IMG/VR virus record: IMGVR_UViG_3300005617_000117
Coordinates: 1-64,000 of that record
Source: a virus
DNA length: 64,000 nucleotides
Strand: one strand, 5' to 3'
In this document: piece by piece, positions 13,700 to 43,253 of the stretch
Position numbering within the stretch: position 1 is the first letter of the stretch
How the letters are laid out: each line of letters opens with the position of its first letter
Made by a program: the position numbers and the translations under genes
The notes under the pieces: generated by a model
The model's database searches: none
What the model saw: only the letters and a program-made list of their open reading frames with translations
Told to the model about the DNA's origin: nothing

Positions 13700-14182
13700 A
13701 TGGGTCTATTACCTGCAAGACAAGTATTTGATACGAACGTTGATCTCACCGTATCCGGTGTAGCTGAACGTGGTGGTATTCTCTCATTCGTTCCGGGCGT
13801 AAACGGCCTTGGTGCGTATGCGAATGCGACTGCGGTTTCAGGGGCTCTAGTGCAGCCTGCTGGTCTGCTTCTAGATGACGTTGAAGCCATCAACAACATG
13901 AATCAGCCTGAATACCGTCAGCGTAACGTAGTTCCACAGGGCTCAGTAGTCGGCATTGCGACCGAAGGTGAGTTCTGGACGGACTTCGTAGAGCAGACGC
14001 TAGCTGGTCAGTCTGTTGGAACTTATGTTCCTGGCGATCCGCTATACATGGCAGACGATGGCAAGCTAAGCCGTAACAACGGAACTCTAGCGAATGCCGC
14101 GACCGCAAAGCGACAGCTTGTCGGCCGTGCATTGAGTGCCCTCGGATCTGACGGCTATCTACACGTAAGAATCGAACTATAA
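13700..14182 (+). CDS. capsid decoration/cement protein
   Basis: 160 aa, immediately upstream of the capsid gene, beta-rich with decoration-like G.L.DV and PGDPLY..DDGKLS patterns. RBS aagggag. Confidence 0.75.
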   Translation: MGLLPARQVFDTNVDLTVSGVAERGGILSFVPGVNGLGAYANATAVSGALVQPAGLLLDDVEAINNMNQPEYRQRNVVPQGSVVGIATEGEFWTDFVEQTLAGQSVGTYVPGDPLYMADDGKLSRNNGTLANAATAKRQLVGRALSALGSDGYLHVRIEL

Positions 14183-14209
14183 TACTAGTTCGCTAACAAG
14201 GAGATTAGA

Positions 14210-15241
14210 ATGAAAAAGTATGATCCTGCTGCTGTTGCAGCCCTTAAGCTAACTGCCGCTCCTAATGCGTCAGAACGCGAACAAGCTCAGAAGGCTTTTG
14301 CCGCTGAACTTAACTGGCCTCTACGCCAGGGTGTTTTCGATCGTGACAACACGGGCGAAATTTATGAGCGTCAGGTTCTACAGCCCGGTGCTCAGGCCAA
14401 CTATCCTCTAGACTTCGTACGTCCTGGCGAAGAGGATAACTACATGGCGTTCACCATGCCCAAGCAGGGTAAGGTGCCTGAACGTCACGTTGAAGGCGAC
14501 GAGCTATGGGTTCCTACATTCCGAATTGCCAATTCAATCGATTGGGACATTCGGTATGCGGAAGAGGCTCGTTTCGACGTAATCATGCGAGCGATCCGGG
14601 TCTATGAAGCCGGTTTCGTCCGCAAGATCAACTCCGACGCATGGCGAACGATTCTCGCGGCGGCGGATGGTCGTGGCTTGATTGTCACTGCTAACGGCAG
14701 TGCTCCATTCACTGGCTCAAGCGTAGCTGTAACGGCTGCTGCGGGTCAGTTCACCAAGGAACTAATCAGCCGAATGAAGACGGCGATGGTTCGTGGTGCG
14801 GGTGGCAACGGCAACTCTGGTCGTCTAACTGACGTTTATCTCTCACTCGAAGCGATGGAAGACATCCGTGCGTGGGACGTAGACGAAATCGATGAGTTCA
14901 CTCGTCGTGAAATCTTCGTCAACCGTGAGTACGGACTAGCATCAATCTATGGTGTTATCCTCCACGAAATGACGGAGTTCGGTGAGGGCCAGGAATATGA
15001 AGTATTCCTATCCAGCACGCTTGGCCGTGCCCACCAGACACAGGCTTCTGCTCTATGCAAGGAGTTCTGCGTAGGACTCGATCTATCAACCAACGACTCA
15101 TTCGTAATGCCTATCCGTAAGGAACTAGAAACATACGAAGATCCTACTCTCTATCGTCAACAGAGAGCCGGAATCTACGGCTGGATGGAGCACGGTTTCG
15201 CCGTACTCGACGCTCGTAGAGTGATCCTTGGAGAGTTCTAA
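14210..15241 (+). CDS. major capsid protein (HK97 fold)
   Basis: 343 aa after the decoration gene, strong RBS aaggaga, strongly biased codons, capsid-like C-terminus GIYGWMEHGFAVLDARRVILG, terminator downstream. Confidence 0.88.
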   Translation: MKKYDPAAVAALKLTAAPNASEREQAQKAFAAELNWPLRQGVFDRDNTGEIYERQVLQPGAQANYPLDFVRPGEEDNYMAFTMPKQGKVPERHVEGDELWVPTFRIANSIDWDIRYAEEARFDVIMRAIRVYEAGFVRKINSDAWRTILAAADGRGLIVTANGSAPFTGSSVAVTAAAGQFTKELISRMKTAMVRGAGGNGNSGRLTDVYLSLEAMEDIRAWDVDEIDEFTRREIFVNREYGLASIYGVILHEMTEFGEGQEYEVFLSSTLGRAHQTQASALCKEFCVGLDLSTNDSFVMPIRKELETYEDPTLYRQQRAGIYGWMEHGFAVLDARRVILGEF

Positions 15242-15273
15242 TCTCTGAAAAGTTAGTCTTAGTTTTGTAATCT

Positions 15274-15307
15274 TGGGGGCGGGGCATGATAGCCTCGCCC
15301 CCATTTT
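15274..15307 (+). terminator. intrinsic terminator after major capsid gene
   Basis: GC-rich stem gggggcggggc-atgata-gcctcgccccc followed by atttt. Confidence 0.85.
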
Positions 15308-15324
15308 GCTTCAGGAGTATCAAC

Positions 15325-16181: not shown

Positions 16182-16187
16182 TGTATT
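16179..16187 (+). promoter_or_regulatory. putative late promoter TAGTGTATT (neck operon)
   Basis: Repeated motif overlapping the rnhA TAG stop, followed by gggaga RBS and ATG 16206. Confidence 0.65.
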
Positions 16188-16205
16188 ATTTCCTGGGAGA
16201 AACGC

Positions 16206-17072
16206 ATGGCCAAAGTATTAACTGTAGGTGGCGACTTAAATCAACTGGATATATTTTTAAGTGCTAATGGCGTTCCTGTTGCTGCCAGCGGTATTTCGTT
16301 TAATGTCTATGACGCCAATAATGTCTTAGCTGTCTCGGGCGTCCCAACTAATCCAGAAACAGGAAAATACCTAGGAAGTGGTGTTGTTCCAGACGGTTTC
16401 GTTCTTGGAAGTTGGCATATTGACTGGCTTATCATTCCTACGGGCTCTGCCCAAATTACGGCCTCCGAGGATTTTGATGTTCAAGCTTTATCAGTCAGTT
16501 TTGGCTTCACGCCACCCGGCTCAATTACTTTTAATATTTATGACGCCGTTCGTATCGATGTCGGTGATCCAGACGCATTAATTTTCAATGACGAATATTT
16601 ACAGCGTGTTCTTATTAAAGCAGTCAGACGCCTCAATCAAGCCTTGGGACTAGCGGTCAAAATGCATGGCCCAACAGGAGTTGAAGGGGAATACGGTGGT
16701 CGCCGAATTCGCGTATATCCATTAACCGTAGACGTTGAGGCCGGTACGATCAGTCCAAATGATGACGAATACGCGGACCTTATTATTCTACAAATGGAAT
16801 ACATTATTAAGACCAGTGAAATATCCGCTCTTAAGCGTTTGAATGCATCCCTGGCATCATCTGTGTTTCAAGGATCTGTTGGTAGTGCTCAAAGTGATGG
16901 CGTATCAGTTACGAATGCGGACGGCGTACAAGTAAGCGTTAGCGTCGGTCGATTCCAGACGAGAGCATCGCTTTATCGATTGGATGTTGAGTTGCTTCGA
17001 GACGAATTGAATGCGGCAATCAAACGATTCTTAGGCAGACTGTCGGGCAACTTCGGAAAGATGATTTATTAA
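16206..17072 (+). CDS. head-tail adaptor/neck protein with N-terminal Ig-like domain
   Basis: AVRIDVGDPD...FNDEYL is adaptor-like. Beta-rich N-terminus. Position after the capsid genes. Confidence 0.6.
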   Translation: MAKVLTVGGDLNQLDIFLSANGVPVAASGISFNVYDANNVLAVSGVPTNPETGKYLGSGVVPDGFVLGSWHIDWLIIPTGSAQITASEDFDVQALSVSFGFTPPGSITFNIYDAVRIDVGDPDALIFNDEYLQRVLIKAVRRLNQALGLAVKMHGPTGVEGEYGGRRIRVYPLTVDVEAGTISPNDDEYADLIILQMEYIIKTSEISALKRLNASLASSVFQGSVGSAQSDGVSVTNADGVQVSVSVGRFQTRASLYRLDVELLRDELNAAIKRFLGRLSGNFGKMIY

Positions 17073-17074
17073 AC

Positions 17075-17656
17075 ATGGCCCTTAGACCATTTAGACAAGT
17101 TGAAGACATATATGACTATGACTTGCCCGTTCTAGAGACATCAGAACGAGGAGGCATTCTTTCATATGCTACTGCTTCCGGTCTAACATATTTACAGTAC
17201 GCGAGAGAGCCTAGCGGAGTTGTGCCTTTGGGGCTGCAATTAAACGATGTGGAATGGCTGAATTATCAGTATCAGCCTTATCCTCACGCCCGCGACGTAA
17301 GACTCCCATACGACGTTGTTAAAGTCGCCTTGCAGGGGCTTTTCGAGACTGACTGGCTTTACCTCGTAGGTGATATCTATGCAGGAATGCCAGCTTATGT
17401 GGGCCCTTCTGGCACATTTACAAATCTATCTTCTTTGGGAGGATATAGAGTTGGTAAATTTATGAGTGCTCTCGATCCTGATCCACATAATGTAACTATT
17501 GCTGGCTTAGGCTTTTCACGAAGTTTTCAAGAGCCACAAACCCACAACATTGTTATTGAAAATGACCAACGAGATCGTGTTACCGTCTTCTCGCCCGGGT
17601 ATGCCCGCGTGCGTATAGATCAGGGCACAATTCTAAGATCACAGGTGGGACAATAA
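17075..17656 (+). CDS. second capsid decoration-like protein (paralog of 13700..14182)
   Basis: Shares L.P.RQV, ERGGILS, G..L.DVE..N, G.F.TD, SAL and GY..VRI with the decoration protein. Confidence 0.7.
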   Translation: MALRPFRQVEDIYDYDLPVLETSERGGILSYATASGLTYLQYAREPSGVVPLGLQLNDVEWLNYQYQPYPHARDVRLPYDVVKVALQGLFETDWLYLVGDIYAGMPAYVGPSGTFTNLSSLGGYRVGKFMSALDPDPHNVTIAGLGFSRSFQEPQTHNIVIENDQRDRVTVFSPGYARVRIDQGTILRSQVGQ

Positions 17657-18192
17657 TGATTAATGTACCCGCAAATCAAAATCTTACTGCCAGTAGCGGC
17701 ATCGTTAATATGGGCTATTTGGCCGATCTCTATCATTCTATGATGGACGAAATGCTAGATGATATGGGTCGAGAAGTAACAATTCATTTAGAGCCGCAGA
17801 TTGCTTCTGATACTACAACTAATAGCCAGCCCCAAGTAATGCAATTAAATCCATTTTTTGGTCGTACGGTGTCGCCAAGCCCAAGTACAAAAGGGCCCGG
17901 AGTCAAAATCACACAACGAGACACGACTTACAAGGCTCATATTAGAGTCGGCCCTTACGCCGGTCCCAACTTAAGTGGTATGGGCACTTTGAAAGAAAAT
18001 GAGGCAATGATTACGGTCGTCATTGGTGCATTGTCTCATATTAAGGCGTGCCGTTCAATCAGCATTGAAGGCCGTCGTTATAGCGTATTAACAACAAGAC
18101 CGATTGGCCTTATTGACCGTAAATATGTGATGGTGAAAATAGCAGAAATTCAGGAGTCTGATATTAAAGACGATACAGGAACTAATGGTTAA
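17656..18192 (+). CDS. putative head-closure/stopper protein
   Basis: Position in the neck cluster. ISIEGRRYSV is typical of head-tail joining beta-barrels. Confidence 0.5.
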   Translation: MINVPANQNLTASSGIVNMGYLADLYHSMMDEMLDDMGREVTIHLEPQIASDTTTNSQPQVMQLNPFFGRTVSPSPSTKGPGVKITQRDTTYKAHIRVGPYAGPNLSGMGTLKENEAMITVVIGALSHIKACRSISIEGRRYSVLTTRPIGLIDRKYVMVKIAEIQESDIKDDTGTNG

Positions 18193-19220
18193 TGGGACTA
18201 GAATATAAATTACGCAGCACTCTAAAGCTGAACTACAAACTATTCCTAGACATGTGCTTCTTGCGAGAAGGTGGATTTACTACTGTCGCAAGTGGTCAGC
18301 AATTCTATGACGGTAGTGTAATGAGTTCATTGGTTCCAGACGAAAGTGCTCATGAGCTTTTCACGGGAATGCAAGTGGGTCAGGTTTGGCAATCAGCTTT
18401 CAGACAGTGGGTCTATGAATCTGGAGTGCCAGTTGATGGATCGCTTATTACTGCTCCTCCGCAGGTTGCTTCTGGTGTTTATATTCACGGTGCTTTTAGG
18501 CGGCCTGATGATCCTATATTTGCTCATAAGGTTGACTTTATTAATGGCCGTATTATTTTTGATAGCCCATTGCCATTAAATACCGAAGTTCACGCCGATT
18601 TTACCTACAGACATGTGAGGGTGGGCTTTGAGCATCAATTTAATCAGCAGTTTAATGACGGTTATATTGAGAGCAAATTTACAACTAATCCCGAAACTTC
18701 GATGCAGCTTGTGTACCCCTCGGGTACTAAACAGCCGTTCCCGGCCGTCTTTATTGAGGTTGATGGTAGAGATCATGCGGCCTATGAATTGGGCAATCGC
18801 TCTCTCATTACTCAGGACGAGATTAAATTTCATATTTGGGCCCTAGACGATCTCCAACGCGACAATATTGTGGATATCCTATATTCACAGACTAATAAAA
18901 CCATTCCTTTAATTAACTTTAATATTGCCCCTATTCCATTATCTGGCATATTCAATGAGATTTCGCCCGAGTATATCGCTTACCAAGATTTATTAAGAAA
19001 TAACAGGATCGTGACGACTATTGGCTCCGGCACGCCCCTAAGATATATGTCTTATATCGATAAGACTGTATTGCAAAATGAAGGAGCTACGCAAGAGTAC
19101 GAGAGGGCTCTTGTTACATTCTACGTCAAGACATATCTAAACGCCCCAGTAACCCCACTTGGACATGTTTTTGCCCCGATTAGTGACATTCCGTCCTTGG
19201 GGGACACGGCATTTAGCTAA
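18192..19220 (+). CDS. putative tail terminator/completion protein
   Basis: Terminator-like PFPAVFIE...YELG...IKFHIWA...QRDNIVDIL pattern, directly before the tube gene. Confidence 0.55.
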   Translation: MGLEYKLRSTLKLNYKLFLDMCFLREGGFTTVASGQQFYDGSVMSSLVPDESAHELFTGMQVGQVWQSAFRQWVYESGVPVDGSLITAPPQVASGVYIHGAFRRPDDPIFAHKVDFINGRIIFDSPLPLNTEVHADFTYRHVRVGFEHQFNQQFNDGYIESKFTTNPETSMQLVYPSGTKQPFPAVFIEVDGRDHAAYELGNRSLITQDEIKFHIWALDDLQRDNIVDILYSQTNKTIPLINFNIAPIPLSGIFNEISPEYIAYQDLLRNNRIVTTIGSGTPLRYMSYIDKTVLQNEGATQEYERALVTFYVKTYLNAPVTPLGHVFAPISDIPSLGDTAFS

Positions 19221-19227
19221 TGTTGCT

Positions 19228-19236
19228 TAGTGTATT
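19228..19236 (+). promoter_or_regulatory. putative late promoter TAGTGTATT (tail tube)
   Basis: Intergenic motif copy followed by leader hairpin cgttagggat...atccctggcg and RBS caggaga. Confidence 0.7.
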
Positions 19237-19298
19237 TAATGCGTTAGGGATACTTTAACTTCTTAATCCCTGGCGAATTAAAAGGCAGGAGAAATTAA

Positions 19299-20702
19299 AT
19301 GGTCAATAATCGTGTGTTCTGGCCAATCGAGCAAGTTGCGATCAAGGCAAACTCTATTGCGGCCACAGGGGCTGTCGCTCCCGTAAACTCAAGACGATAC
19401 ATTACTGGAGCCTTAGCTTCAGGTGTTAACGAAGTTGGAAATCAATGGGAAGTACCGCGTGGTTTGCAGTCTGCTGGTATGACAACTACATTCAATCTAG
19501 AACAGGTTTTCCAGATTGGACAGGTTGAAATTTACGAGAACTCTGAACGTCAGCCTGACGTAGAAATGACTCTAAGCAAGGCTATCGACGGTTCAAAGCC
19601 CATCTTCTTCATGGTGACTGACCCAACTCAGGGCAACGACATCGTAGCTCGTACTCAGAGCTTCAAGGTTGACGTTGCGATGGAGATTTATCCCGACTCA
19701 CAGTTCCGTGCAACAGGTCGTCCAATTACGATCGTCACGGCGTCGGGAATGGTTATTTCCAACATTTCGTACACGTTCCCCGTTGACGGCTTCGTAACAG
19801 AAGACATCACGCTTGTTGGTAACGACAAGATTTGGGGTACGCTCATCAACATTTCCGGTCAGACGCTCGGCAATGGTGGTACCGAAGCATTAGTCAACTT
19901 CGGTGACGATCAGAACGGCGGAAATCCAAGTGCTCCAAAGGGCTTACCTTCCGGCGTATTCGGACATGATGGAATCACCTCCCCTCTAGTTGAGGGTGGT
20001 GCCTTCGAACTTGCTGGTGGAACGGACGTAAACGGTGTAATTATCGTTGGCTCTGGTATCCAGCGTCGTGAAGACGTAGACCTACGCCGAAGCGTACTTC
20101 CAAAGGATATTCCTGGCATCAAGCAGTTCGCAAGTTCTGGTATCAATGCCGCATTCGTAAACGGCGGATTCGGTGCCCAAGGACCGGGAACGGCTTCTGC
20201 ATCAACACAGTTAATTGGTGATGCGAATACCGACTTCGTTCAGGAGCACATCCAGACGATTACGGTTTCAGTAGACCTTGGCCGTGATGACATCTTCGAA
20301 CTTGGTTCAAAGCGTCCTTTCGCAAAGGTTGTATCCTTCCCGATCGAAGTAACGGCCTCAGTAGAGGTTATTACTGCTCAGGGCGACCTAGTAGATGCTA
20401 GATCAGACTTGGACATCGGACCAGACAACACTGCTCCGAACCAGACGATGATTATTAGAACTGCTGACGGTCTACAGGTAGACCTTGGTGATGCGATGAG
20501 ACTCCAGGGCGTAGAGGTTGGTGGCGGAGACGCGGGTGGCGACAACATGACTGTAACCTACAACTTCGTAGGCTACAACACGTTCAACGTCAGTCACGAC
20601 TTCTTCCAGCCGAACCACAGAGTCATCATCTTTGAGACTGGCTTGAGCCGATTCAACGTTGGTTCACCACGCTTCAATAGAGCAGGACTAGGAATCTTCT
20701 AA
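19299..20702 (+). CDS. major tail tube protein
   Basis: Own promoter motif, strong RBS and terminator, capsid-like codon bias. Two internally repeated tube-like halves (GLQSAGMTTTFNLEQVFQIG and HIQTITVSVDLGRDDIFELG). Confidence 0.75.
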   Translation: MVNNRVFWPIEQVAIKANSIAATGAVAPVNSRRYITGALASGVNEVGNQWEVPRGLQSAGMTTTFNLEQVFQIGQVEIYENSERQPDVEMTLSKAIDGSKPIFFMVTDPTQGNDIVARTQSFKVDVAMEIYPDSQFRATGRPITIVTASGMVISNISYTFPVDGFVTEDITLVGNDKIWGTLINISGQTLGNGGTEALVNFGDDQNGGNPSAPKGLPSGVFGHDGITSPLVEGGAFELAGGTDVNGVIIVGSGIQRREDVDLRRSVLPKDIPGIKQFASSGINAAFVNGGFGAQGPGTASASTQLIGDANTDFVQEHIQTITVSVDLGRDDIFELGSKRPFAKVVSFPIEVTASVEVITAQGDLVDARSDLDIGPDNTAPNQTMIIRTADGLQVDLGDAMRLQGVEVGGGDAGGDNMTVTYNFVGYNTFNVSHDFFQPNHRVIIFETGLSRFNVGSPRFNRAGLGIF

Positions 20703-32070: not shown

Positions 32071-32079
32071 TAGTGTAAT
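32071..32079 (+). promoter_or_regulatory. putative late promoter TAGTGTAAT (tail-tip operon)
   Basis: Motif directly after a terminator and before the next operon. Confidence 0.7.
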
Positions 32080-32091
32080 TCTAGTTCGGGC

Positions 32092-35500: not shown

Positions 35501-37258
35501 TTCACACTTCGTTATATACCAATGGGATTCGTAAATGCCCCTACGCCTAGACAGGCCAGCGGTATTACATATAACGGCACTGCTCTATCGGCAGCAAATC
35601 CGCCGCCGTTCGCAGTTTCAGGTGCTCAATTCCAGATTCCACAAAGCGGATTTTCAGTTGGCTTTTGGATCGCACCAAGAGAAGCGACGGCCGCCTCAGA
35701 TGCAGTTGTTGTATTATCATACGGTATCGTGCCAAGCAGTGCGACAAGTGCCGTCTTCTCGGATTCTTCATGGGCCATTGGTTTTGATGATGATAGTAAC
35801 TTATGCATGTGGCTATCGCAAGATGGCAAGATGAAGTTGACGAATGCGGCGACCCCCGCAAGTTCTCAGACAAAATGTGCTATTTTAAGAACGCCAGTGT
35901 CAGATCCGGGATCTGATATTGAAATATTTAGACGAGGTTATTTCAATCCTGGTCATATAGACAGTCTTGAGCATGTAATATTTACATTTAATCATTCGCC
36001 AAATGGTGGTGTAAGTGGTATAGCTAAAGGCTATTTGAATGGCGAGAAGGTTGCCGAAATGGCCGTGCCTGCCAGCGGCTTCCATCAGCCTATGGTGCCG
36101 GAATCTCGCTTTATCAGTTTTATGATTCCACAAACTGGTACTTGGGCATTCGGTACGGCCCGTGGTGCTCAGCTTAGCGTATTGACCGATGTATTTTACA
36201 TGTCTCGTCCAATTACAGATGAAGAAGCACGATATGTTGCTCTAAATGGTATTGGCCCTCCATCAGTTACGGAAGCGTCAGGAGCAATAGGAGGTTATGT
36301 AGTAGGATTAGCTGGTGCAGATGGCACGATTGGTGCCTATATGACCGGCTTCGATACCGGCTCTGGATTGATTGGCGGATATATTAATGGTGCTAACGAA
36401 AGTTCTGGTGCCATTGGCGGATATCTACCAGCCCTAAGTCTACCATCTGGTTATGTGGGTGCCTATATCTCTGCGACCATTGGGGCGTCAGGAGCAATCG
36501 GCGGATATATTTCCAGCAAAGACATGGCTTCTGGAGTCATCGGAAGCTGGATGCGTGGAGCCATCCGAAACGTTCATTATTTTGACGCGGCCTTCTCTGT
36601 TGAATTCTTCTCATTCTCAGATTTCGACGCGAAGTTCCGAGTTAATCAAACAAACACAAGCGATTTCGATGCTCAAATCGTAGTGTTCCAGAGTGAACAG
36701 CCCCCAGGAGTGGACATTATTATTCCGAATGCAACATTATTCGGCACTTCAATTCCTTGGGACCAATACTTTATTGGCAGTGGTCGAGCCGTACAAGGCA
36801 AGAGCATTGTCCAAGCCAAGTTTACTTTCGGTGACTTTAATGCACCGGTTCTAGTAAGCCAGAGTGGAAATGATTTATACCCCGTATCACATACGTTCTC
36901 TCAGAGCGGAGTATATATCGTAAGATTCTCAGTGATTGATTCTAATGGTCAGCATAATTCAGCTACAAGAATCATTAACTTAGCGTCTGGAGTTTCTCCA
37001 GTTAATATTGCATTATCAGGTATCCCGGGAGAAGGATTTGCTCCATTAAGCGTACAGTTTAGTCAGACGGTAATATCACAGCCAAATAATGTGGCAATTG
37101 TGGCACAACTACTTAGCTTTGATGATGGACAAGAGAGTATTAATATTAATCCTTTGCACGTATATACAGAAGTAGGAGTTTATAGACCGGTTTGGGTTGT
37201 CAGGGATTCTAGAGGATGCATTTGGGGCGACAGTTTGGTGGCAGGAGTGGATAACTAA
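32585..37258 (+). CDS. large tail fibre/adhesin: several LamG (concanavalin-like) domains, 14-aa repeat stalk and C-terminal PKD-like domains
   Basis: Repeated LamG motifs (FTIGYWI, HITFTY...LYKNG, YDRILSAAEI, FTIAGWF...FYVDG...NRPLLPSEI, FSVGFWI...YLNG). PKD-like FGD...SHTFSQSGVYIV and FDDG...HVYTEVGVY. Confidence 0.8.
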   Translation: MALNNEGNLVILSPFNEPSGAAFFKNYAPAYFNNRGSGLSYDWHVHITGGDTNEPQSCWPGTDGIFMPESGTTHFGYRVQGTAETNAAANNTAAEKVLIIGPGGWNSRSLLSIPPISQSGFTIGYWISPQSDGFIKHATTEIMAKRHAVIQKGATNEALYLGVSGARQQAAQFTQDVFASGLRAFAVVINSTAANDRRLDIPIESGAYTHITFTYKHFGTANEITLYKNGVSGAAIITPTQLVSSNAQWADRPLTIGGCIDTNAVGTDRYDEAAGWGHLISGVYAYDRILSAAEIAQIHNQGGLQVDSALTYPAYKAVTISDPSIVTYAPFISPGFIDASRHHLNLFANQDEGAIGNYIICPGPFNHAMAFNDTTNSIDLAIGTPSGTLIELLYGGNGSFTIAGWFFQDNAAGVTSTTFDNTTLFSFGSVGPTGEFGPARQTGGFQVSASGAANSVRMSARLYDGGLVTVANTTVLYHNDGDHFLSMAHHAALVYDEQTKGIAFYVDGLLSQSGTMPNSMLPQMQRLAGSGYPLVFLGGVINEAVDTYSNVGGDDCAVCDIFIANRPLLPSEIKFIAESGVDVTPTYYSVHDPRLRGYWDCTGSGTNDLLIRDTSMIFSSGGIPGHLVQCAADPMWDNIEASVDKGQLGRTDRFSLARDPIRGITSGAWAVMGASDGIPHTASVTGEWSRTSSTDFCQRFRMCSDERDIRAPTFINEYIIGFNVTPSGSLPTNYFGQAGRETNSMLTHFGEVSATDSFFSYLTLHSDPASGVIIVFESADGTSLMTPLVSGSLINGIQSRVMFHAKPLLPFNSDTLTPIECCLYINGNPVTRNVFASNAAVGPAARLYDLDANGAADNWTMQIGGRGLNDTFSSQVTSQDGLGQIYMNGIFCMVGTFSRNDILRLAASGINSSKTISNFSNSIPSAPLTIQDPNLEGYWRFSGPDAGSGITDLSSKNNNLTAIARSVGSQSAFTLRYIPMGFVNAPTPRQASGITYNGTALSAANPPPFAVSGAQFQIPQSGFSVGFWIAPREATAASDAVVVLSYGIVPSSATSAVFSDSSWAIGFDDDSNLCMWLSQDGKMKLTNAATPASSQTKCAILRTPVSDPGSDIEIFRRGYFNPGHIDSLEHVIFTFNHSPNGGVSGIAKGYLNGEKVAEMAVPASGFHQPMVPESRFISFMIPQTGTWAFGTARGAQLSVLTDVFYMSRPITDEEARYVALNGIGPPSVTEASGAIGGYVVGLAGADGTIGAYMTGFDTGSGLIGGYINGANESSGAIGGYLPALSLPSGYVGAYISATIGASGAIGGYISSKDMASGVIGSWMRGAIRNVHYFDAAFSVEFFSFSDFDAKFRVNQTNTSDFDAQIVVFQSEQPPGVDIIIPNATLFGTSIPWDQYFIGSGRAVQGKSIVQAKFTFGDFNAPVLVSQSGNDLYPVSHTFSQSGVYIVRFSVIDSNGQHNSATRIINLASGVSPVNIALSGIPGEGFAPLSVQFSQTVISQPNNVAIVAQLLSFDDGQESININPLHVYTEVGVYRPVWVVRDSRGCIWGDSLVAGVDN
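36272..36691 (+). repeat. ten 14-aa (42-nt period) protein repeats
   Basis: Seven units of xxSG(A/L/V)IG(G/A)Yxxxxx followed in register by three xxxx(D/Y)FDAxxxVxx units. Confidence 0.75.
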
Positions 37259-40200
37259 TGGGCGAATTAATTTCAGTCAGTGGATCAAGTCTACCATTCA
37301 ATGCAATTGCATGGCCGTCTGGCTTATTTGCATCGGGCACGCCCGGCTATAATCTAACGGCATTTCTTGCTTCATTAAATGCTAACTTCGGATTTAACTT
37401 AACGCCGCACACGTTTCAGATGGAATGGGTGCCCGCTGGCGATGCCTCCTCATTCCACGGAGCATCAGGCCAATTGCCGCCAATCGGAAGCAACTTTGAA
37501 CTTTATGTGGGAGACTTTTTCCTACGGGGTTATGTTACTCACTCAGATTACGTGACTAGTAAAGATGGGACGATGATTAATCTCAATGTAGAAGATTATC
37601 GAAGAGTCCTACAAAAAGTTAAGATACATACAGAAGACTTGGGCGAAAACGTCCCATCGGGAGTTGTTTCTGTAGCAAGAGCATTCCGTAAAGTCAATGG
37701 GCTTTATAATCTTGATGGTACTGCGTCTGATCCTTTAACACTAGAGTATCAGAGAATTCTTGATATTGGGGCGACTTATACTCAGATTCTTTCTGCAATC
37801 GATTATACATATAACGAGGGCAAGTCTTCATTGCCAGTTTCAGAACTGCCTACAAAAGCTAAACTTCAGGCGAATCTTGGACCCGACCTAGACAATCTGC
37901 GTTGGCAATTTAACTTAACAACTATTGACGAAATGATGAGCCGTATCCTAGCGGACTCTGGATTTGATTGGTATTGGAACATGAGTTCTGCCCAATTAAA
38001 TCTCGTGAATAAAAAGAATATCTTTGATGTTACTGAAAACAGAATTCTTGATTACGTGTCCACATTCGGCAGTGCAAGCGGTCTTAATGAAACCGTCCAA
38101 TTAGGATTCGGACAGGACGTAGTTTCTGATCCAACAAGATTCCGACTAATGGGCGGACATCAGCAAGGCGTAATTAACTCGCAACTATTAAGTCCAATCG
38201 ACGGTCTAGATACTTCTGCTCTTGATAATCACATTGTATTCAAGAAGGCGTGGGATCAATTAACGATTGGTTTCTATGATGCTGATGGTTTCTATCGCAC
38301 CTATATTCCTCACGAACGCGAACTCCAGCTTTCGATGGCGGGTATTGAACAATGGTCATACTTTAAGAAATTCCAGAGTGATAGTAGTGGTGATTATCCT
38401 CCTGGGTTTGAATTACCAGCGGACGCGGGATCTATCGCGGCCCAGGACGGAACATTCCAAAGCCGCCTCAATCCGTTAATGCCTCTCGCGGGCGAGGCCA
38501 CGAGTGCGGGGCAGTCTGGTATTCGTATCATTTCTAACAGACGAGATCAGGAACACAACTGGACTCTTGATTTCTTTAACAGGGTAAGAAACCACGCCTC
38601 TAGACATTATGGACGCACTTACATTGCTTCTGGAGTTATGTTTAATAATGCCTCCGGGATGTTCCGTCCAATCGATGCCGCATGGGCAAATATCGAAAAC
38701 CAAATTAATGGAACAACGCTATCTCCGTCTGGCTCGACAAGCGGCCTCTTCGTAGAAAATTATGAAATTAACAGACAGCTAGGGCCAGTCAGTCCATTTA
38801 TCACAGACGACTTCCGAGTTGCTGCCCATTGCGTCCTACCGGCTGACACCGTTTATGGTCCGTTAGGTGACGACGTTCCGGCTTCCTTTGCGAACTGGAC
38901 TGAGGATGCTCCACCATTTAATCCATCTGGCGATGGACGACACTACATCCCTGTGCAAATTTCTATGGTTGGTCAGAGAGTTATTGACCCACGAAGCAAT
39001 GATCTCTTCTCATTCGAATCTTATCCAGAAGGCACTTTGTTATGTCAGTTGCCAATTAATGCTGGACCACGTACGGGACTGATAAATGACGGAATAATTA
39101 GAAGTCTAGAAACTTTAATTTCTACACGAGACAAGTTGGGTGGCTCAGGCTTACAGGATATAGTAGATCCTTCAATTGTTCTAAATGTATATTCAGAGTT
39201 GAGCGGTGTTGTCGTGCCCGTAGAGGCGAGAACTCGATATGGACAAATCTATCCAACCACTTGGGTTTCAGGTATTTTGAATCCTCGTACACATGAAGAA
39301 GTGCAGTTAGACGATCAGTTCGTGCCCTGGGCATTCTCTCCACAGGGAACTAAAAATTCGCTTGATATTATGACTGACCGTGCAATGGCAAGAGTAATTG
39401 GCAAGGTTGTTCGCAGTGACACTTCTAGATTTGCTGATTTTACTCAAGTTGGATTACCATTGCTTTCATTTGACTCATTTGCGAATCAGCAAGTAGATGC
39501 TAATGGTTTATACGGATCAATCGTCCACGGAGTCAATGAATTAAATCTTGGTTTCTCTATTGACGGTTTCCAGACTCGCTATAAGGTACAGTCTTATTAT
39601 CCAAAATTTGGCAAGGAAGCTCCTCTTGGAGAAAGAGTCCGTGCCATTCTAAATGGTATTATTAATCCTATCGACTTTACATTCTTAAAGTTAGGCAATC
39701 AGGTTCCTCCTCCGCCGCCAAGTCCTTTGATTGATGCCGGAGCCAGAGATATTCCTTTCTTTGCCACACGAGAAGAAAGAGCGGTTCGAGTTAGAATTTC
39801 CGAAGTCAATGACATCTTCACGCTTGCAAGCGTAGGATTACCACTCCAAGAAAGATATCGAGGTGTTGATGCTCACGGTTATAAGAAGCCATATGCCAAC
39901 TCATTCTCGTCTGACTTAGATCAAAAACGTGGAGCTATCTGCATTGACGGCTTCTTAAACGTCGATGATTCTGCGATTTATCATACTGATGCATTCGAAT
40001 TGCCCGGCGGAACTACTATTCTCAGATACTTTACTGGAGGCCGCCCATTCGGCAATAGCACGATCGTTACTGTTGAACAGGTGAGCGTAGACGTTCCCGG
40101 AACATATGATGTTACAATCTTTGAAAATAATGACGCCGACAGAGCAATCTTGGCTGTTCCAGTTCTTAATGGCTCAGTTAATATTGGCGATAGAACTACG

Positions 40201-40545
40201 CTTTCCGCAAGAGGCGACGCATCTGTTACTGTTGGGCCAAACGTTGGCGGCCTGTATATTAATGGAACTTCGCTTGGTGCAGGCGTAGTACCAGTAGAAA
40301 TCGTTTCTGTTACTAACGAGGGTACGATTGCTGCTACGGCAGTATGTCAAATCCTTAATTCTAATGGTATTGCAGCCGAAAATGGGGCCCAAACCAGTGG
40401 CGTTATTCCTTTGCCTTACAGACAATTTGCCACTTCTGGCGACCGAGGATTCTTGGCGACTACCACGGTTCCAGATGCCGTAAGCGGTAGCGGTGTCAGC
40501 GTTAGTTTCGTTGAAATAGTCAAGCCAGCCTTCGTTCGGTACTAA
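37258..40545 (+). CDS. tail tip / baseplate hub-like structural protein
   Basis: 1095-aa beta-rich, SG-rich protein in the tail-tip operon. Confidence 0.6.
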   Translation: MGELISVSGSSLPFNAIAWPSGLFASGTPGYNLTAFLASLNANFGFNLTPHTFQMEWVPAGDASSFHGASGQLPPIGSNFELYVGDFFLRGYVTHSDYVTSKDGTMINLNVEDYRRVLQKVKIHTEDLGENVPSGVVSVARAFRKVNGLYNLDGTASDPLTLEYQRILDIGATYTQILSAIDYTYNEGKSSLPVSELPTKAKLQANLGPDLDNLRWQFNLTTIDEMMSRILADSGFDWYWNMSSAQLNLVNKKNIFDVTENRILDYVSTFGSASGLNETVQLGFGQDVVSDPTRFRLMGGHQQGVINSQLLSPIDGLDTSALDNHIVFKKAWDQLTIGFYDADGFYRTYIPHERELQLSMAGIEQWSYFKKFQSDSSGDYPPGFELPADAGSIAAQDGTFQSRLNPLMPLAGEATSAGQSGIRIISNRRDQEHNWTLDFFNRVRNHASRHYGRTYIASGVMFNNASGMFRPIDAAWANIENQINGTTLSPSGSTSGLFVENYEINRQLGPVSPFITDDFRVAAHCVLPADTVYGPLGDDVPASFANWTEDAPPFNPSGDGRHYIPVQISMVGQRVIDPRSNDLFSFESYPEGTLLCQLPINAGPRTGLINDGIIRSLETLISTRDKLGGSGLQDIVDPSIVLNVYSELSGVVVPVEARTRYGQIYPTTWVSGILNPRTHEEVQLDDQFVPWAFSPQGTKNSLDIMTDRAMARVIGKVVRSDTSRFADFTQVGLPLLSFDSFANQQVDANGLYGSIVHGVNELNLGFSIDGFQTRYKVQSYYPKFGKEAPLGERVRAILNGIINPIDFTFLKLGNQVPPPPPSPLIDAGARDIPFFATREERAVRVRISEVNDIFTLASVGLPLQERYRGVDAHGYKKPYANSFSSDLDQKRGAICIDGFLNVDDSAIYHTDAFELPGGTTILRYFTGGRPFGNSTIVTVEQVSVDVPGTYDVTIFENNDADRAILAVPVLNGSVNIGDRTTLSARGDASVTVGPNVGGLYINGTSLGAGVVPVEIVSVTNEGTIAATAVCQILNSNGIAAENGAQTSGVIPLPYRQFATSGDRGFLATTTVPDAVSGSGVSVSFVEIVKPAFVRY

Positions 40546-40548
40546 TTC

Positions 40549-42465
40549 ATGGTTGTAGCTTCTGGAACCATCCCATATCAGTATGAGGGAATCTATCCCT
40601 TTAGAGTGCCCGATAGTCGATCTGTCGGTTTTTCTGGTATTCTATACGAACAAACAATGACCGTCCATACAGCAGAATTATTTAGATTCTTTGGATCTGA
40701 TGACGATCCGTTCGTGTTCCAGAAGTATTTTAATATTAATGCTGCCACAGAATTATTTACGCCTCGACCTGATGGTGCCAATCTTGACGGTCGTGTGAAT
40801 GGTTTGCCCGCTGGATCATTCTTCATGAACTATATTGAAGACATGCGGCAGAGCTTCTCGCTTATGTTCTCGTTTAGCAACGTCGATTTAGCCGGGAATA
40901 TTTTAGCCTTTAAAAAGGACTGGCTTCTTTGGGTCGGAAGCATTAGCGGCACTCAAGGAGATTTTACAAGATCCTTAGAAACAATTAATTCTGGTCCAAT
41001 TCTTAGTATGGATTTTGACGACGTTGGGGCTAGTGGCGTTCTTACCGATATTGACTTAAGAGAAGTGTCTTACCAGCCGTATTCAAGATGGGGCAAAACT
41101 CTATCTGTAACTTATAACATTGCCTCGGTTAGACTCGGACCTATTTTCCCAGGCTTTATGTCTACCGCAGGACTGTTCGTTAATTTAAACTCCAGAGAAC
41201 AAGCACTTAGCTTCACGACTGGCGGGACAACTAGAACGTCGGCAGATTGGACCGCTGGACAAATGATATTAGATGGAGACATGTTCTTCTCTGATACAGA
41301 TTTTGCCCTGGCCGCAGGAACGGCAACTCGTCAAACACTAGAAGGTGATATTTCTCATAACGCCTATCCGGTACTTTCACTTCCTGGCCGTGTATTTAGA
41401 AATCACTTAAATGGCACGGTAGATCCGCGTGCTCGGGCGATCGTAGATCCCATTCCGTTAGCCATTGGTGGATATGGTATTGGAGCAATCAATAGTTTAT
41501 CTGCTCATCCTAAATTAGTTGTACCATCGGGCACTTTAAGTTTTAGTCCACAATTATCCTATAACGGCACTCATCTTGGTAGCGGATTTTATGTGTTTGA
41601 TAATAGTTTCTGGATTGACCAAGACGAAATCCTTAATCCTTCCGGCCTAAGACTACTAAATCCTTTGGCCCCACCGTCATTCGTTTGGTTTAGAATTGCA
41701 GATCAAGCTAATGCATTTGACGATCTCGGCGGCAACCACGCCTGGAGCACGCAGAACATGGTTGGTCTGATGGATAACGGCACAAACTATGTTAAAATGT
41801 CCACCATGCTTGCGACAGCAGATGCCGACAGAAAGATGGGATTCTTCTCATATGATAAATCTACTCTAGACCTTGTTTCAGTAGATCAACCGGTTCAAGA
41901 CTGGACAGTATTTACTGCAACTATCTCTGTCCCTGGAGTTTTAGCTCATGCCTCGTGGGATGGTACTTACTACTACGCCTATACCCAAAGCGGATCTGGT
42001 CCTGCTAGAAATATCTTCTTATTTGATAGCGGATTTATCCTGGCAGACTCTAAGTTTTATGGGGCACACACATTAACTTGGATTCAGGGCAATATATTTA
42101 CTGGCGGCGTTTTCGGAGCCGTTGGAGATACGGTCTATGAACTATTAATAGATCCTGATCCTGGCAATGACATTGTTACTGATACTGGCATTGCTTATAC
42201 TGTGGATGTTAGCGTTGCAGCGTGGCCAGCCAGTCATTCAAGCGTAGTAACTAAAATCTATCCGCCGAAACAAATTACTGGATCTCCTTATTTTACAGAC
42301 GGTACATGGATGATGGCTATTAATGGATCTAATGTAGTAGTTATGTTTAGAGGTGAATTATCTGGATCATCTATTGTACCACAGGAAGGGTTTGTTGTCA
42401 GTGCATTGGGTGCGGCGGTCACGGCAAGAGCCGGTTATGAGTTCGTATATGGCAACTTTACTTAG
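40549..42465 (+). CDS. putative tail/receptor-binding structural protein
   Basis: 638-aa beta-rich, SG-rich protein. The C-terminal half has propeller-like segments (SWDGTYYY). Confidence 0.55.
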   Translation: MVVASGTIPYQYEGIYPFRVPDSRSVGFSGILYEQTMTVHTAELFRFFGSDDDPFVFQKYFNINAATELFTPRPDGANLDGRVNGLPAGSFFMNYIEDMRQSFSLMFSFSNVDLAGNILAFKKDWLLWVGSISGTQGDFTRSLETINSGPILSMDFDDVGASGVLTDIDLREVSYQPYSRWGKTLSVTYNIASVRLGPIFPGFMSTAGLFVNLNSREQALSFTTGGTTRTSADWTAGQMILDGDMFFSDTDFALAAGTATRQTLEGDISHNAYPVLSLPGRVFRNHLNGTVDPRARAIVDPIPLAIGGYGIGAINSLSAHPKLVVPSGTLSFSPQLSYNGTHLGSGFYVFDNSFWIDQDEILNPSGLRLLNPLAPPSFVWFRIADQANAFDDLGGNHAWSTQNMVGLMDNGTNYVKMSTMLATADADRKMGFFSYDKSTLDLVSVDQPVQDWTVFTATISVPGVLAHASWDGTYYYAYTQSGSGPARNIFLFDSGFILADSKFYGAHTLTWIQGNIFTGGVFGAVGDTVYELLIDPDPGNDIVTDTGIAYTVDVSVAAWPASHSSVVTKIYPPKQITGSPYFTDGTWMMAINGSNVVVMFRGELSGSSIVPQEGFVVSALGAAVTARAGYEFVYGNFT

Positions 42466-42471
42466 TGTAAT
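42463..42471 (+). promoter_or_regulatory. putative late promoter TAGTGTAAT
   Basis: Motif overlapping a TAG stop, immediately upstream of a structured RNA. Confidence 0.65.
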
Positions 42472-42480
42472 TTAATTATA

Positions 42481-42581
42481 CCCGGATGCCAGACGGTATC
42501 TCGTGGGACTTGCCCCGAAGGGCCACAGGCGTTCGGACTTACCGATAGCTAAGGTTTAAAAAGCCTTGGCTATTTTTATTT
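42481..42581 (+). ncRNA. candidate structured small RNA or attenuator leader
   Basis: GC-rich non-coding stretch between promoter motif and terminator. Stem ccggatgcc/ggcgttcgg, inner gtg/cac and gccc-cgaa-gggc, possible pseudoknot cggta/taccg. Confidence 0.5.
42545..42581 (+). terminator. intrinsic terminator upstream of the 42597 gene
   Basis: atagctaaggttt-aaa-aagccttggctat followed by ttttattt. Confidence 0.7.
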
Positions 42582-42596
42582 GATGGGAGATTTTTC

Positions 42597-43253
42597 ATGG
42601 TAAGCGGAATTAGATTCGCAGGATGTTCTGGAGCGATGGGTGGACAGCCTAGCAATAGAGCGTTCCCCAACGGTCTAGAAGTATTTAATATGCAGCCTGG
42701 GGATACGTCTGCACCTCTACGTGTAGGCTTCTTCGGTGCTGGAGGGGCTCCTAACGCCTCAGTAATCGTTGGCGAATACCAAGACCGCACCCACAGAACT
42801 AATCATAACGGGGCCGATTTAGGCGTCTTTATTAATAATAAATTCTCATCTTCTACGGTAGCAATTGTTTCTGGCGTTACGTTCCCCAACTTAATCGATA
42901 TGCCAGCAAGTTCCGGTACTCTGATGTGCCGGTTTACAGAGCCAAGTGCTCAGCAAGTACAAACTCAGAACGCCACGTTCCGGGCGGTTTCATTTAACTC
43001 TAACTCAGGCGTTCCGAACATCGATGCTATTCCTGCTAACGTAACCGTACAGGCTTTCGAGCTAAAGAATACGGTTGGTGGTGCTGGCAACTCTTCATGG
43101 ACTAATATTACCAGCGGAAGCAATGCCCTTGCACTTAATGCACAGGCTGCGACCGCAACGGTTCATGACTTTATAGTTGCCGTTTCTGCTTCTCCGACCG
43201 CTACGGGAACTAATCGAGACTTCGGCTTCGCCGTAAGATTAGAATACTTCTAA
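42597..43253 (+). CDS. putative virion protein
   Basis: RBS gggaga. 218 aa, rich in Ser/Gly/Ala/Thr, six SG motifs. Last gene of the structural block. Confidence 0.65.
   Translation: MVSGIRFAGCSGAMGGQPSNRAFPNGLEVFNMQPGDTSAPLRVGFFGAGGAPNASVIVGEYQDRTHRTNHNGADLGVFINNKFSSSTVAIVSGVTFPNLIDMPASSGTLMCRFTEPSAQQVQTQNATFRAVSFNSNSGVPNIDAIPANVTVQAFELKNTVGGAGNSSWTNITSGSNALALNAQAATATVHDFIVAVSASPTATGTNRDFGFAVRLEYF

What the first reader, a model, noticed from the sequence alone, without database searches (positions are those of the whole stretch)
13700..43253. Ser-Gly dipeptides are enriched only in predicted surface-exposed virion proteins
Approximate manual SG counts. High: 32585 LamG protein about 39 in 1557 aa (reverse dipeptide GS only about 13), 37258 about 21/1095, 28901 about 13/498, 40549 about 12/638, 42597 6/218, 31145 6/201, 30397 4/185, 18192 6/342, tail tube 6/467, 16206 4/288, 17075 3/193. 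Low: tape measure 4/1687, major capsid 1/343, portal 2/788, TerL 1/659, DnaE 5/1084. The context recurs as (A/P/V/S/G)-S-G-(aliphatic/T), for example LASGTVIASGL, WPSGLFASGTP and VSGVSGS. The sites are dispersed and encoded by varied codons, which points to protein-level selection for a motif rather than a DNA repeat.
Basis: seen in the sequence. Interest (0 to 1): 0.85.

Follow-up and report, generated by a model that had tools for sequence, protein, structure and literature searches.

The report
Ser-Gly turn motif on phage tail
The tail, baseplate and fibre proteins of this uncultured large phage and its relatives carry the short pattern (Ala/Pro)-Ser-Gly-(Val/Ile/Leu) far more often than chance and conserve the serine strictly. 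It may be where the phage's own sugar-transferring enzymes attach a sugar coat, but no chemistry shows that yet.

Summary

- **Size of the excess:** after per-protein shuffling, the ORFs at 28901-43253 hold 103 SG against 42.3 expected (z 9.9), the top of all 400 dipeptides. GS is 41 against 42.4, and the rest of the window is 48 against 53.6.
- **Extended motif:** the pattern is hydrophobic-x-[A/P]-S-G-[I/V/L]. [AP]SG[IVL] occurs 25 times against 1.8 expected. Versions with D, N or T in place of S are not enriched.
- **Protein-level selection:** the coding hexamers are in frame 101 times against 22 and 7 out of frame. Ser codons switch between TCN and AGY at conserved sites. Ten of 13 SG sites in the hub protein are kept in at least 117 of 120 homologues.
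- **Lineage-specific:** the excess recurs across the clade, at 33-44% GC. It is absent from the tail proteins of nine unrelated phages.
- **Not simply "surface-exposed":** the major capsid protein is not enriched, and the central baseplate hub is.
- **Glycan genes:** the phage encodes at least ten soluble glycosyltransferases, five methyltransferases and nucleotide-sugar enzymes.

Best reading, at about 45%: the motif is a Ser-specific acceptor site for phage-encoded tail glycosylation. This is unproven. This scan has noted the same pattern before in other genomes.

The parts
28901..30397 (+). 498-aa baseplate hub built of repeated tail-tube-like domains. SG is 13 against 3.8 expected.
   Evidence: Counts are. 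Ten of 13 SG sites are kept in at least 117 of 120 homologues. The AF2 model has pLDDT 76.6. Its Foldseek matches are weak (best E 8.7e-4, TM 0.12-0.18) and are nearly all tail tube, Dit or baseplate chains. Ten of 13 SG sites lie in loops or hairpin turns of the model.
30397..30954 (+). 185-aa baseplate protein. SG is 4 against 1.5; the clade-wide ratio is 3.15.
31145..31750 (+). 201-aa beta-sandwich baseplate protein. SG is 6 against 2.3, with five SG sites conserved across the family.
   Evidence: In the AF2 model the SG sites sit at strand edges and turns.
32585..37258 (+). 1557-aa LamG and PKD domain protein. SG is 39 against 17.0, GS is 13.
   Evidence: The clade-wide ratio is 2.12.
37258..40545 (+). 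1095-aa baseplate or fibre protein. SG is 21 against 8.6.
   Evidence: Some SG sites are ancient and others are specific to the clade.
40549..42465 (+). 638-aa distal tail protein. SG is 12 against 5.8.
42597..43253 (+). 218-aa distal tail protein. SG is 6 against 2.2; the clade-wide ratio is 2.83.
16206..20702 (+). Neck and sheath-level ORFs (16206, 17075, 17656, 18192, 19299) with a moderate SG excess. The pooled count with ORF 15738 is 22 against 10.5. The 342-aa ORF at 18192 has a clade-wide ratio of 3.26.
   Evidence: The identity of the 467-aa ORF (tube or sheath) was not resolved.
14210..15241 (+). Major capsid protein, a negative control. SG is 1 against 1.2; the clade-wide ratio is 0.62.
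23833..28896 (+). Tape measure protein, a negative control. SG is 4 against 7.8.
32092..32598 (+). 168-aa ORF inside the baseplate cluster that is not SG-rich. The clade-wide ratio is 0.53.
54513..56324 (+). 603-aa GT4-type glycosyltransferase with a C-terminal DUF4214 domain and a conserved Cys4 insertion (C298, C303, C328, C331). It is core to the clade and is the candidate initiating enzyme.
   Evidence: Pfam assignment is. Orthologues occur in all complete relatives. Its nearest protein clusters are virus-only.
3119..4051 (+). 310-aa Glyco_trans_1_2 enzyme in the packaging operon. It has homologues in relatives G001 and G003.
56324..62069 (+). Further glycosyltransferases: 56324 (GT1), 57573 (GT2, core to the clade), 60103 (GT2) and 60939 (GT1). 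The glycan island runs on to genome coordinate 77 kb.

Best explanation
The outer tail apparatus of this phage clade carries a selected, Ser-specific short motif: hydrophobic-x-[Ala/Pro]-Ser-Gly-[Val/Ile/Leu]. The proteins concerned are the neck and sheath-level proteins, the baseplate hub and wedge proteins, and the fibres. The motif sits at tight turns and strand edges of beta-rich domains.

Most likely these serines are acceptor sites for O-glycosylation in the host cytoplasm by the phage's own soluble enzymes. A phage-specific GT4-type transferase that is core to the clade (54513, with a Cys4 finger insertion and a DUF4214 domain) would add the first sugar. The other transferases, methyltransferases and GDP-sugar enzymes of the 54.5-77 kb island would then build a methylated glycan containing deoxyhexose. 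The result would be a sugar-coated tail.

Shown here:
- the motif exists, is Ser-specific, is conserved and is specific to this lineage;
- the enzyme set exists and the enzymes are soluble.

Inferred only:
- any sugar is attached to these serines;
- which enzyme initiates;
- what the coat does (protection or adhesion).
For: - **Excess and order specificity.** SG is 103 against 42.3 (z 9.9) while GS is 41 against 42.4. In the whole SG-rich class, SG is 153 against 62.0, [AP]SG 51 against 8.5, SG[IVL] 74 against 13.4 and [AP]SG[IVL] 25 against 1.8. The analogues are not enriched: [AP]DG 8 against 5.1, [AP]NG 5 against 5.1, [AP]TG 7 against 6.6 and TG[IVL] 5 against 11.5.
- **The same motif in three divergent genomes.** The extended motif appears independently in genomes of 44, 33 and 39% GC.
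- **Selection on Ser itself.** The coding hexamers are in frame 101 times against 22 and 7 out of frame. TCN and AGY codons switch at conserved sites. Ser in SG has conservation 0.80, with ten of 13 sites at 97.5% or more. Other Ser scores 0.41 and Asp in DG 0.22.
- **Spans unrelated folds and is lineage-specific.** Eleven protein families have clade-wide ratios of 1.75-3.3, while TerL, portal, capsid, the tube region and a 168-aa baseplate ORF have 0.3-0.9. In the 1095-aa family, sites 466, 630 and 649 are SG only in the closer relatives and read LD, DT or TD in distant homologues. The tail proteins of T4, and eight further phages genome-wide, show no comparable excess.
- **A trans-acting machinery is present.** At least ten glycosyltransferases, five methyltransferases, a HAD phosphatase, a nucleotidyltransferase, and GDP-mannose 4,6-dehydratase plus an epimerase are encoded.
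- **The machinery looks soluble.** No ORF with more than 3 predicted TM segments is found in G000 or in two complete relatives. No Bac_transf or Glycos_transf_4 initiating enzyme is found in G000.
- **DNA is a less likely target.** No ThyA-like hydroxymethylase is found in G000 or in the complete relative G003.
- **The candidate enzymes are core to the clade.** The 54513 transferase occurs in every complete or near-complete relative tested, and 3119 and 57573 have homologues in G001 and G003.
- **Precedent.** The cytoplasmic transferase TibC modifies Ser but not Thr in a beta-helix adhesin. One mapped site reads N-S-G-G, and the enzyme carries a Cys4 finger insertion (PMC4358343).
Against: - No chemical evidence exists that any glycan is attached to these proteins.
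- The motif is also what a type I turn with a G1 bulge looks like. In both AF2 models the sites sit at turns and strand edges, so a structural role is sufficient in principle.
- The central hub protein is as enriched as the fibres, and the capsid is not enriched. This fits a 'surface shield' poorly.
- Non-structural cytoplasmic proteins show no avoidance of the motif.
- The motif and the transferase are both universal in the clade, so their association amounts to one evolutionary event.
- Cultured phages with weak homologues of the transferase give mixed results. TJE1 distal tail ORFs have 23 against 10.5. S-CBS4 and Mae-JY09 show no general excess.
- The glycan island could serve another target.
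Confidence: 0.45

Rival explanations
1. The motif is purely structural or serves assembly. [A/P]-S-G-hydrophobic would be this lineage's preferred way to make a tight beta-hairpin turn (type I turn with G1 bulge) or a subunit contact in its tail proteins. No modification would be involved.
For: - Positions -1 (A/P), 0 (S), +1 (G) and the flanking hydrophobic residues match the classic turn pattern (the turn statistics are from general knowledge).
- Ten of 13 hub sites, and four of six sites in the 201-aa protein, lie in coil next to strands.
- The buried central hub is enriched.
- Some SG sites are shared with homologues of 24-30% identity.
- Cytoplasmic proteins show no avoidance of the motif.
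Against: - Turn positions normally accept D, N, S or T, but only Ser is enriched here.
- Asp before conserved Gly drifts freely, while Ser is invariant.
- The excess spans at least 11 unrelated protein families yet is absent from the same kinds of protein in nine other phages.
- A lineage-wide habit across unrelated folds calls for a shared trans-acting factor.
Confidence: 0.3
2. The serines are targets or ligands for something other than a glycan. Possibilities are another modification (phosphorylation, acylation, cross-linking through dehydroalanine), a docking code for a tail chaperone, or direct binding of host surface polymers.
For: - Selection is strict for Ser and is specific to the lineage.
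- Five methyltransferases and several ORFs of unknown function are conserved nearby.
- The proteins concerned are tail-specific, not a general surface set.
Against: No kinase, acyltransferase or lanthipeptide-like dehydratase was seen among the ORFs scanned, but not all ORFs were scanned. The glycan machinery is by far the largest conserved enzyme set.
Confidence: 0.15
3. The excess is an artefact of composition, repeats or a DNA-level motif.
For: S and G are both somewhat raised in these proteins. A 14-residue tandem repeat and fibre repeats contribute a minority of the sites.
Against: - Per-protein shuffles remove the effect of composition, and GS is at expectation.
- The coding hexamers are frame-specific.
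- The sites are dispersed and conserved through codon changes.
Confidence: 0.02

Closest known systems
Bacterial autotransporter heptosyltransferases (TibC/AAH, BAHT family) acting on TibA and AIDA-I (PMC4358343)
   Same: It is a soluble cytoplasmic GT-B enzyme that hyperglycosylates many sites on a beta-rich surface protein. Ser but not Thr is modified, and one mapped site reads N-S-G-G. The enzyme carries a Cys4 metal finger inserted in the catalytic domain. The 54513 family also has four invariant Cys inserted just before its C-lobe.
   Different: 54513 matches Pfam Glycos_transf_1 (GT4-type); the Pfam table lists only Glycos_transf_1, Glyco_trans_1_4 and DUF4214 for it. No ADP-heptose pathway was seen; the phage has GDP-sugar enzymes instead. 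The substrates are phage tail proteins of many folds, not one beta-helix adhesin. No activity has been shown.
Virion glycosylation of mycobacteriophages by phage-encoded glycosyltransferases (Freeman et al. 2023, as cited in PMC12619734; the paper itself is not held)
   Same: Phage-encoded transferases are proposed to decorate the phage's own structural proteins.
   Different: In mycobacteriophages the glycans sit on C-termini of the capsid and tail tube subunits. Here the capsid and tube region are not enriched, and the capsid has no Ser/Thr-rich C-terminal tail. The candidate sites are dispersed internal turns with a defined sequence. Myrna, the mycobacteriophage included as a control, shows no SG excess.
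Autonomous glycosylation systems of giant viruses (chloroviruses, mimivirus), from general knowledge
   Same: There is a large virus-encoded set of soluble transferases, methyltransferases and nucleotide-sugar enzymes, with no lipid-carrier machinery and non-canonical acceptor sites.
   Different: Those systems modify capsid or fibril proteins of eukaryotic viruses, and the chlorovirus glycans are N-linked. Here the candidate targets are the tail proteins of a bacteriophage, through Ser.
Ser-Gly xylosylation sites of eukaryotic proteoglycans, from general knowledge
   Same: The Ser-Gly dipeptide is the core of a Ser-specific O-glycosylation site.
   Different: Proteoglycan sites have acidic flanks. 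Here Asp is avoided at -1 and Glu at +1 and +2, and the flanks are A/P and I/V/L. No GT14 enzyme was identified.
Type I turn with G1 bulge in beta-hairpins, from general structural knowledge
   Same: The pattern is A/P, then a small polar residue, then Gly, followed by a strand residue. The sites lie at turns in the models.
   Different: The generic turn accepts D, N, S or T, and it is not specific to one phage lineage or to tail proteins.

Membership tests
BAHT (TibC/AAH) protein heptosyltransferases | Heptosyltransferase (GT9-like) catalytic domain | tested here: not met
   Pfam assigns 54513 to Glycos_transf_1 and Glyco_trans_1_4. The Pfam table for this protein lists no other glycosyltransferase family. 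phmmer against the PDB found nothing.
BAHT (TibC/AAH) protein heptosyltransferases | Four conserved Cys forming a metal finger inserted in the catalytic domain | tested here: inconclusive
   C298, C303, C328 and C331 are invariant in seven orthologues of 33-83% identity, arranged as CxxC...CxxC. Metal binding and homology to the TibC finger were not tested.
BAHT (TibC/AAH) protein heptosyltransferases | Ser-specific modification of a beta-rich substrate | not testable with these tools
   Only sequence statistics are available. Ser is enriched and Thr, Asp and Asn are not.
Mycobacteriophage-type virion glycosylation | Phage-encoded glycosyltransferases | tested here: met
   At least ten transferase domains were found by Pfam.
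Mycobacteriophage-type virion glycosylation | Acceptor sites at C-termini of the capsid and tail tube subunits | tested here: not met
   The capsid SG ratio is 0.62 and the capsid has no Ser/Thr-rich C-terminal tail. The tube-region ORFs have ratios of 0.3-0.9.
Mycobacteriophage-type virion glycosylation | Glycan shown on virion proteins | not testable with these tools
   The phage is uncultured. No proteomic data were examined.
Lipid-linked (en bloc) bacterial O-glycosylation (PglL/PglB type) | Multi-pass membrane oligosaccharyltransferase, flippase and an initiating phosphoglycosyltransferase | tested here: not met
   No ORF of 100 aa or more has more than 3 predicted TM segments in G000, G001 or G003. 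G000 has no Bac_transf or Glycos_transf_4 match. G000 is only 66% complete.
DNA hypermodification by glycosylation (T4-like) | Pyrimidine hydroxymethylase (ThyA-like) supplying the acceptor base | tested here: not met
   No PF00303 match was found in G000 or in the complete relative G003. G001 has one strong ThyA match. Other routes of DNA modification were not tested.
Proteoglycan Ser-Gly xylosylation site | Acidic residues flanking Ser-Gly | tested here: not met
   Asp is depleted at -1 and Glu at +1 and +2. A/P and I/V/L are enriched.
Generic type I turn with G1 bulge | D, N, S or T interchangeable before Gly | tested here: not met
   [AP]DG is at 1.6 times expectation, [AP]NG at 1.0 and [AP]TG at 1.06, against [AP]SG at 6.0. 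Ser is invariant while Asp drifts.

The most novel reading that the evidence does not exclude
A widespread clade of uncultured phages of about 100-180 kb uses a defined, Ser-only sequon, [A/P]-S-G-[I/V/L] at beta-turns. A phage-specific GT4 enzyme bearing a Cys4 finger, together with about ten further phage enzymes, would build a methylated deoxyhexose glycan on the whole outer tail apparatus in the host cytoplasm. This would be the first sequence-defined O-glycosylation code for bacteriophage tails.
Probability: 0.4. Interest if true: 0.85.

Novelty: new variant of a known kind. Interest (0 to 1): 0.72.

Why it matters
Phage virion glycosylation has so far been shown only for a few mycobacteriophages, on capsid and tube C-termini. 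A short sequence-defined acceptor motif would change that in three ways.
- Glycosylated phage proteins could be predicted from sequence alone.
- The large 'orphan' glycosyltransferase islands of many environmental phages would have an explanation.
- There would be a compact enzyme-plus-tag pair to test for glyco-engineering.

It would also bear on how tails resist proteases or stick to host surfaces.

Even if the motif proves purely structural, the result is unusual. A Ser-only turn code shared by eleven unrelated tail protein families, and absent from other phages, would need explaining.

Tried and rejected
**Explanations rejected**
- Composition. Per-protein shuffles keep the excess, and GS is at expectation.
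- Internal repeats. Only a 14-residue repeat in the 1557-aa protein and the fibre repeats contribute, and they are a minority of sites.
- DNA motif. The pattern occurs in frame 101 times, against 22 and 7 out of frame and 8-17 on the reverse strand.
- General habit of tail fibres. T4 baseplate and fibre proteins are at expectation. Nine phages give 0-2 tiny ORFs at p<1e-3, against 8-13 ORFs in the clade genomes. HTVC008M and P-SSM2 fibre ORFs have a mild SG excess, but GS rises with it.
- Avoidance of the deamidation-prone NG and DG pairs. NG is 31 against 25 and DG 34 against 27, so neither is depleted.
- Sequon avoidance in cytoplasmic proteins. It was not seen, with ratios of 0.92-1.22. Head and internal virion proteins show only a mild deficit: SG 45 against 58.8 and [AP]SG 2 against 7.5.

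**Searches that gave nothing**
- PHROGs returned nothing for ten tail proteins.
- Pfam found only LamG and PKD domains in the tail proteins.
- phmmer against the PDB returned nothing useful for 54513, 3119, the 467-aa ORF or the 1557-aa protein.
- No close cultured phage was found.
- Literature searches found no report of a Ser-Gly motif in phage tails. The Freeman 2023 paper is not held.

**Contrast test for the glycosyltransferase link**
- SG-poor homologues of the 1095-aa protein exist, but their genomic neighbours are SG-rich. They are therefore not SG-free phages.
- All complete relatives carry the 54513 transferase.
- Weak transferase homologues in the cultured phages TJE1, S-CBS4 and Mae-JY09 gave mixed results.
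- Alignments A1 and A4 were too divergent for locus searches, and P0135 alone found nothing.

**Complex prediction**
- Prediction of 54513 with the 201-aa protein gave no answer. It counts neither for nor against binding.
Full report
**Setting.** The window is the first 64 kb of a single 102,814-bp viral contig, which CheckV estimates to be 66% complete. It has no close cultured relative. The capsid protein hits only Bacillus phage G, at 23% identity. TerL hits Bacillus phages at 26%. Metagenomes hold many relatives. Several are complete genomes of 150-183 kb with direct terminal repeats.

**The observation.** I translated 52 plus-strand ORFs and counted dipeptides. I then shuffled each protein on its own, which keeps its composition.
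- The eight ORFs from 28901 to 43253 hold 103 SG against 42.3 expected (z 9.9). This is the largest deviation of all 400 dipeptides; the next is about z 4.
- In the same ORFs GS is 41 against 42.4, TG is depleted at 19 against 32.4, and AG is 29 against 37.2.
- ORFs 15738-20702 give SG 22 against 10.5.
- All other ORFs of the window give SG 48 against 53.6.
- A second SG-rich cluster lies outside the window, at genome 88146-91147. It has three fibre-like proteins with 15 against 4.7, 6 against 2.6 and 12 against 4.4.

**It is a longer, Ser-specific motif.** The SG-rich ORFs of this genome and of two divergent complete relatives show the same context. The relatives are G001 (33% GC) and G003 (39% GC). 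Ala or Pro is favoured at -1, Ile or Val at -3 and at +1 after Gly, and Asp and Arg are avoided at -1.

| Pattern, SG-rich class of this genome (6,671 aa) | Observed | Expected |
|---|---|---|
| SG | 153 | 62.0 |
| [AP]SG | 51 | 8.5 |
| SG[IVL] | 74 | 13.4 |
| [AP]SG[IVL] | 25 | 1.8 (z 17) |
| [AP]DG | 8 | 5.1 |
| [AP]NG | 5 | 5.1 |
| [AP]TG | 7 | 6.6 |
| TG[IVL] | 5 | 11.5 |

The remaining 24,818 aa of the genome hold one [AP]SG[IVL] against 2.5 expected. A 10,001-aa set of T4 tail proteins holds two against 1.5.

**Selection acts on the protein.**
- Ser-Gly coding hexamers occur 101 times in frame. They occur 22 and 7 times in the other two frames, and 8-17 times per frame on the opposite strand.
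- Among 120 homologues of the 498-aa protein (55-86% identity), mean SG is 11.1 against 3.7 expected. Ten of the 13 sites are kept in at least 117 of 120 sequences.
- At seven of those ten sites the Ser codon switches between TCN and AGY among relatives. That switch needs two base changes while Ser is kept.
- As a control in the same alignment, Asp before Gly has conservation 0.22 and drifts to S, A, T, N or E. Ser before Gly has 0.80, and other Ser 0.41.

**It is lineage-specific and crosses folds.** I collected orthologues from about 80 related loci, which gives a bimodal picture.
- Ratios of 1.75-3.3 were found for eleven families: 16206, 17075, 18192, 19299, 28901, 30397, 31145, 32585, 37258, 40549 and 42597.
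- Ratios of 0.3-0.9 were found for TerL, portal, the capsid, 20748, 21932, 22486 and the 168-aa ORF 32092.
- GS is near 1 in most families.

In the 1095-aa family, some SG sites (8, 21, 671) are shared with homologues of 24-30% identity. Others (466, 630, 649) are SG only in the closer relatives and read LD, DT or TD in the distant ones. Those distant homologues still sit beside strongly SG-rich neighbours, so the trait covers the whole clade.

Nine unrelated phages served as a baseline: T4, lambda, T5, SPO1, Myrna, HTVC008M, Ma-LMM01, P-SSM2 and phiKZ. Their genome-wide SG ratios are 1.0-1.44, and they give 0-2 tiny ORFs at p<1e-3 for the extended motif. The three clade genomes give 8-13 such ORFs.

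**Structure.** The AF2 model of the 498-aa protein has pLDDT 76.6. It is a chain of beta-beta-alpha-beta-beta units whose Foldseek matches, all weak (best E 8.7e-4, TM 0.12-0.18), are nearly all tail tube, Dit and baseplate chains, so it is a baseplate hub. Ten of its 13 SG serines fall in coil, mostly hairpin turns or the residues just before a strand, and four are in low-confidence loops. The 201-aa protein models as a beta-sandwich, with its SG sites at strand edges and turns. The motif therefore has the shape of a type I turn with a G1 bulge. The generic form of that turn accepts Asp, Asn, Ser or Thr, which is not what is seen here.

**The enzyme set.** Pfam finds the following:
- glycosyltransferases at 3119, 54513, 56324, 57573, 60103 and 60939, and at genome 66346, 67233 and 68849, with a probable paralogue at 63454;
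- five methyltransferases;
- a HAD phosphatase and a nucleotidyltransferase;
- GDP-mannose 4,6-dehydratase and an epimerase/reductase.

No ORF has more than three predicted membrane spans in this genome or in the two complete relatives. G000 has no initiating phosphoglycosyltransferase. Neither G000 nor G003 has a ThyA-like hydroxymethylase.

Three transferases (3119, 54513 and 57573) have homologues in both G001 and G003. The 54513 type occurs in every complete or near-complete relative examined. Its nearest protein clusters are virus-only. Its family carries four invariant cysteines, arranged CxxC...CxxC, inserted before the C-lobe.

**Reading.** A habit shared by eleven unrelated tail protein families, strict for Ser and confined to one phage lineage, points to a shared trans-acting factor. 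The largest conserved enzyme set in these genomes is a soluble glycan-building machinery. I therefore favour Ser O-glycosylation of the outer tail, at about 45%.

The nearest working parallel is TibC/AAH. It is a cytoplasmic GT-B enzyme with a Cys4 finger, and it modifies Ser but not Thr at many sites of a beta-helix adhesin. One mapped site reads N-S-G-G (PMC4358343). 54513 is not a member of that family, because Pfam places it in Glycos_transf_1.

**Weaknesses.**
- There is no chemistry.
- The hub is enriched and the capsid is not.
- Cytoplasmic proteins do not avoid the motif.
- The motif and the transferase co-occur as a single evolutionary event.
- Cultured phages with weak homologues of the transferase give mixed results.

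A purely structural or assembly role remains a serious rival, at about 30%.

**Earlier notes of this scan.** After I had derived the motif, I found that earlier notes describe the same Ser-Gly or [A/P]-S-G excess in tail proteins of other uncultured phages. There are 33 such notes from at least 29 genomes, and the eight I read carry the same tentative glycosylation reading. I took from them the lead to the TibC paper and read it myself. They are not independent evidence.

Noticed in passing
window 54513-64000, continuing to genome coordinate 77023 (L001:1-13023): A glycan island of about 23 kb holds at least nine glycosyltransferase domains, five methyltransferases (FkbM, MT_24 and MT_11 types), a HAD phosphatase, a nucleotidyltransferase, and GDP-mannose 4,6-dehydratase with an epimerase/reductase. 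An IMPDH/GMP-reductase gene (62069-63151) is embedded in it.
   Followed up: partly
window 54513-56324, residues 298-331: Four invariant cysteines (CxxC...CxxC) form an insertion in the clade-core GT4-type transferase. This resembles the Cys4 iron finger of TibC in layout. A DUF4214 domain lies at the C-terminus.
   Followed up: partly
L002:5146-8147 (genome 88146-91147, outside the window): A second cluster holds three fibre-like proteins rich in SG (15 against 4.7, 6 against 2.6, 12 against 4.4). They have internal repeats of the type ...LSGL...GSGI...INGxxGPxI... Two of the three (347 and 255 aa) share a C-terminal domain.
   Followed up: partly
window 36278-36532 (residues 1232-1316 of the 1557-aa protein): Six tandem copies of a 14-residue unit are each built around S-G-A/V-I-G-G-Y-I/L.
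   Followed up: no
window 32092-32598: A 168-aa ORF in the middle of the baseplate cluster is consistently SG-poor across the clade (ratio 0.53), unlike all its neighbours. It may be an internal part or an assembly factor.
   Followed up: no
whole contig G000: The contig is linear and estimated to be 66% complete. Complete relatives with direct terminal repeats are 150-183 kb, so about a third of this genome is probably missing.
   Followed up: partly
L190 (Tetrasphaera phage TJE1, NC_019930) 5388-10731 and 30112-34217: This cultured actinobacterial phage has a small glycan cassette upstream of its terminase: a nucleotidyltransferase, an epimerase, a methyltransferase, and a transferase weakly similar to 54513. 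Its five distal tail ORFs hold 23 SG against 10.5 expected, with GS 9.
   Followed up: partly
window 3119-5181: A Glyco_trans_1_2 enzyme (3119) and a cupin (4774) lie between the small and large terminase genes. The ORF at 4032, between them, has no Pfam match. G003 keeps 3119 and 4032 in the same arrangement; the cupin ORF was not compared.
   Followed up: partly
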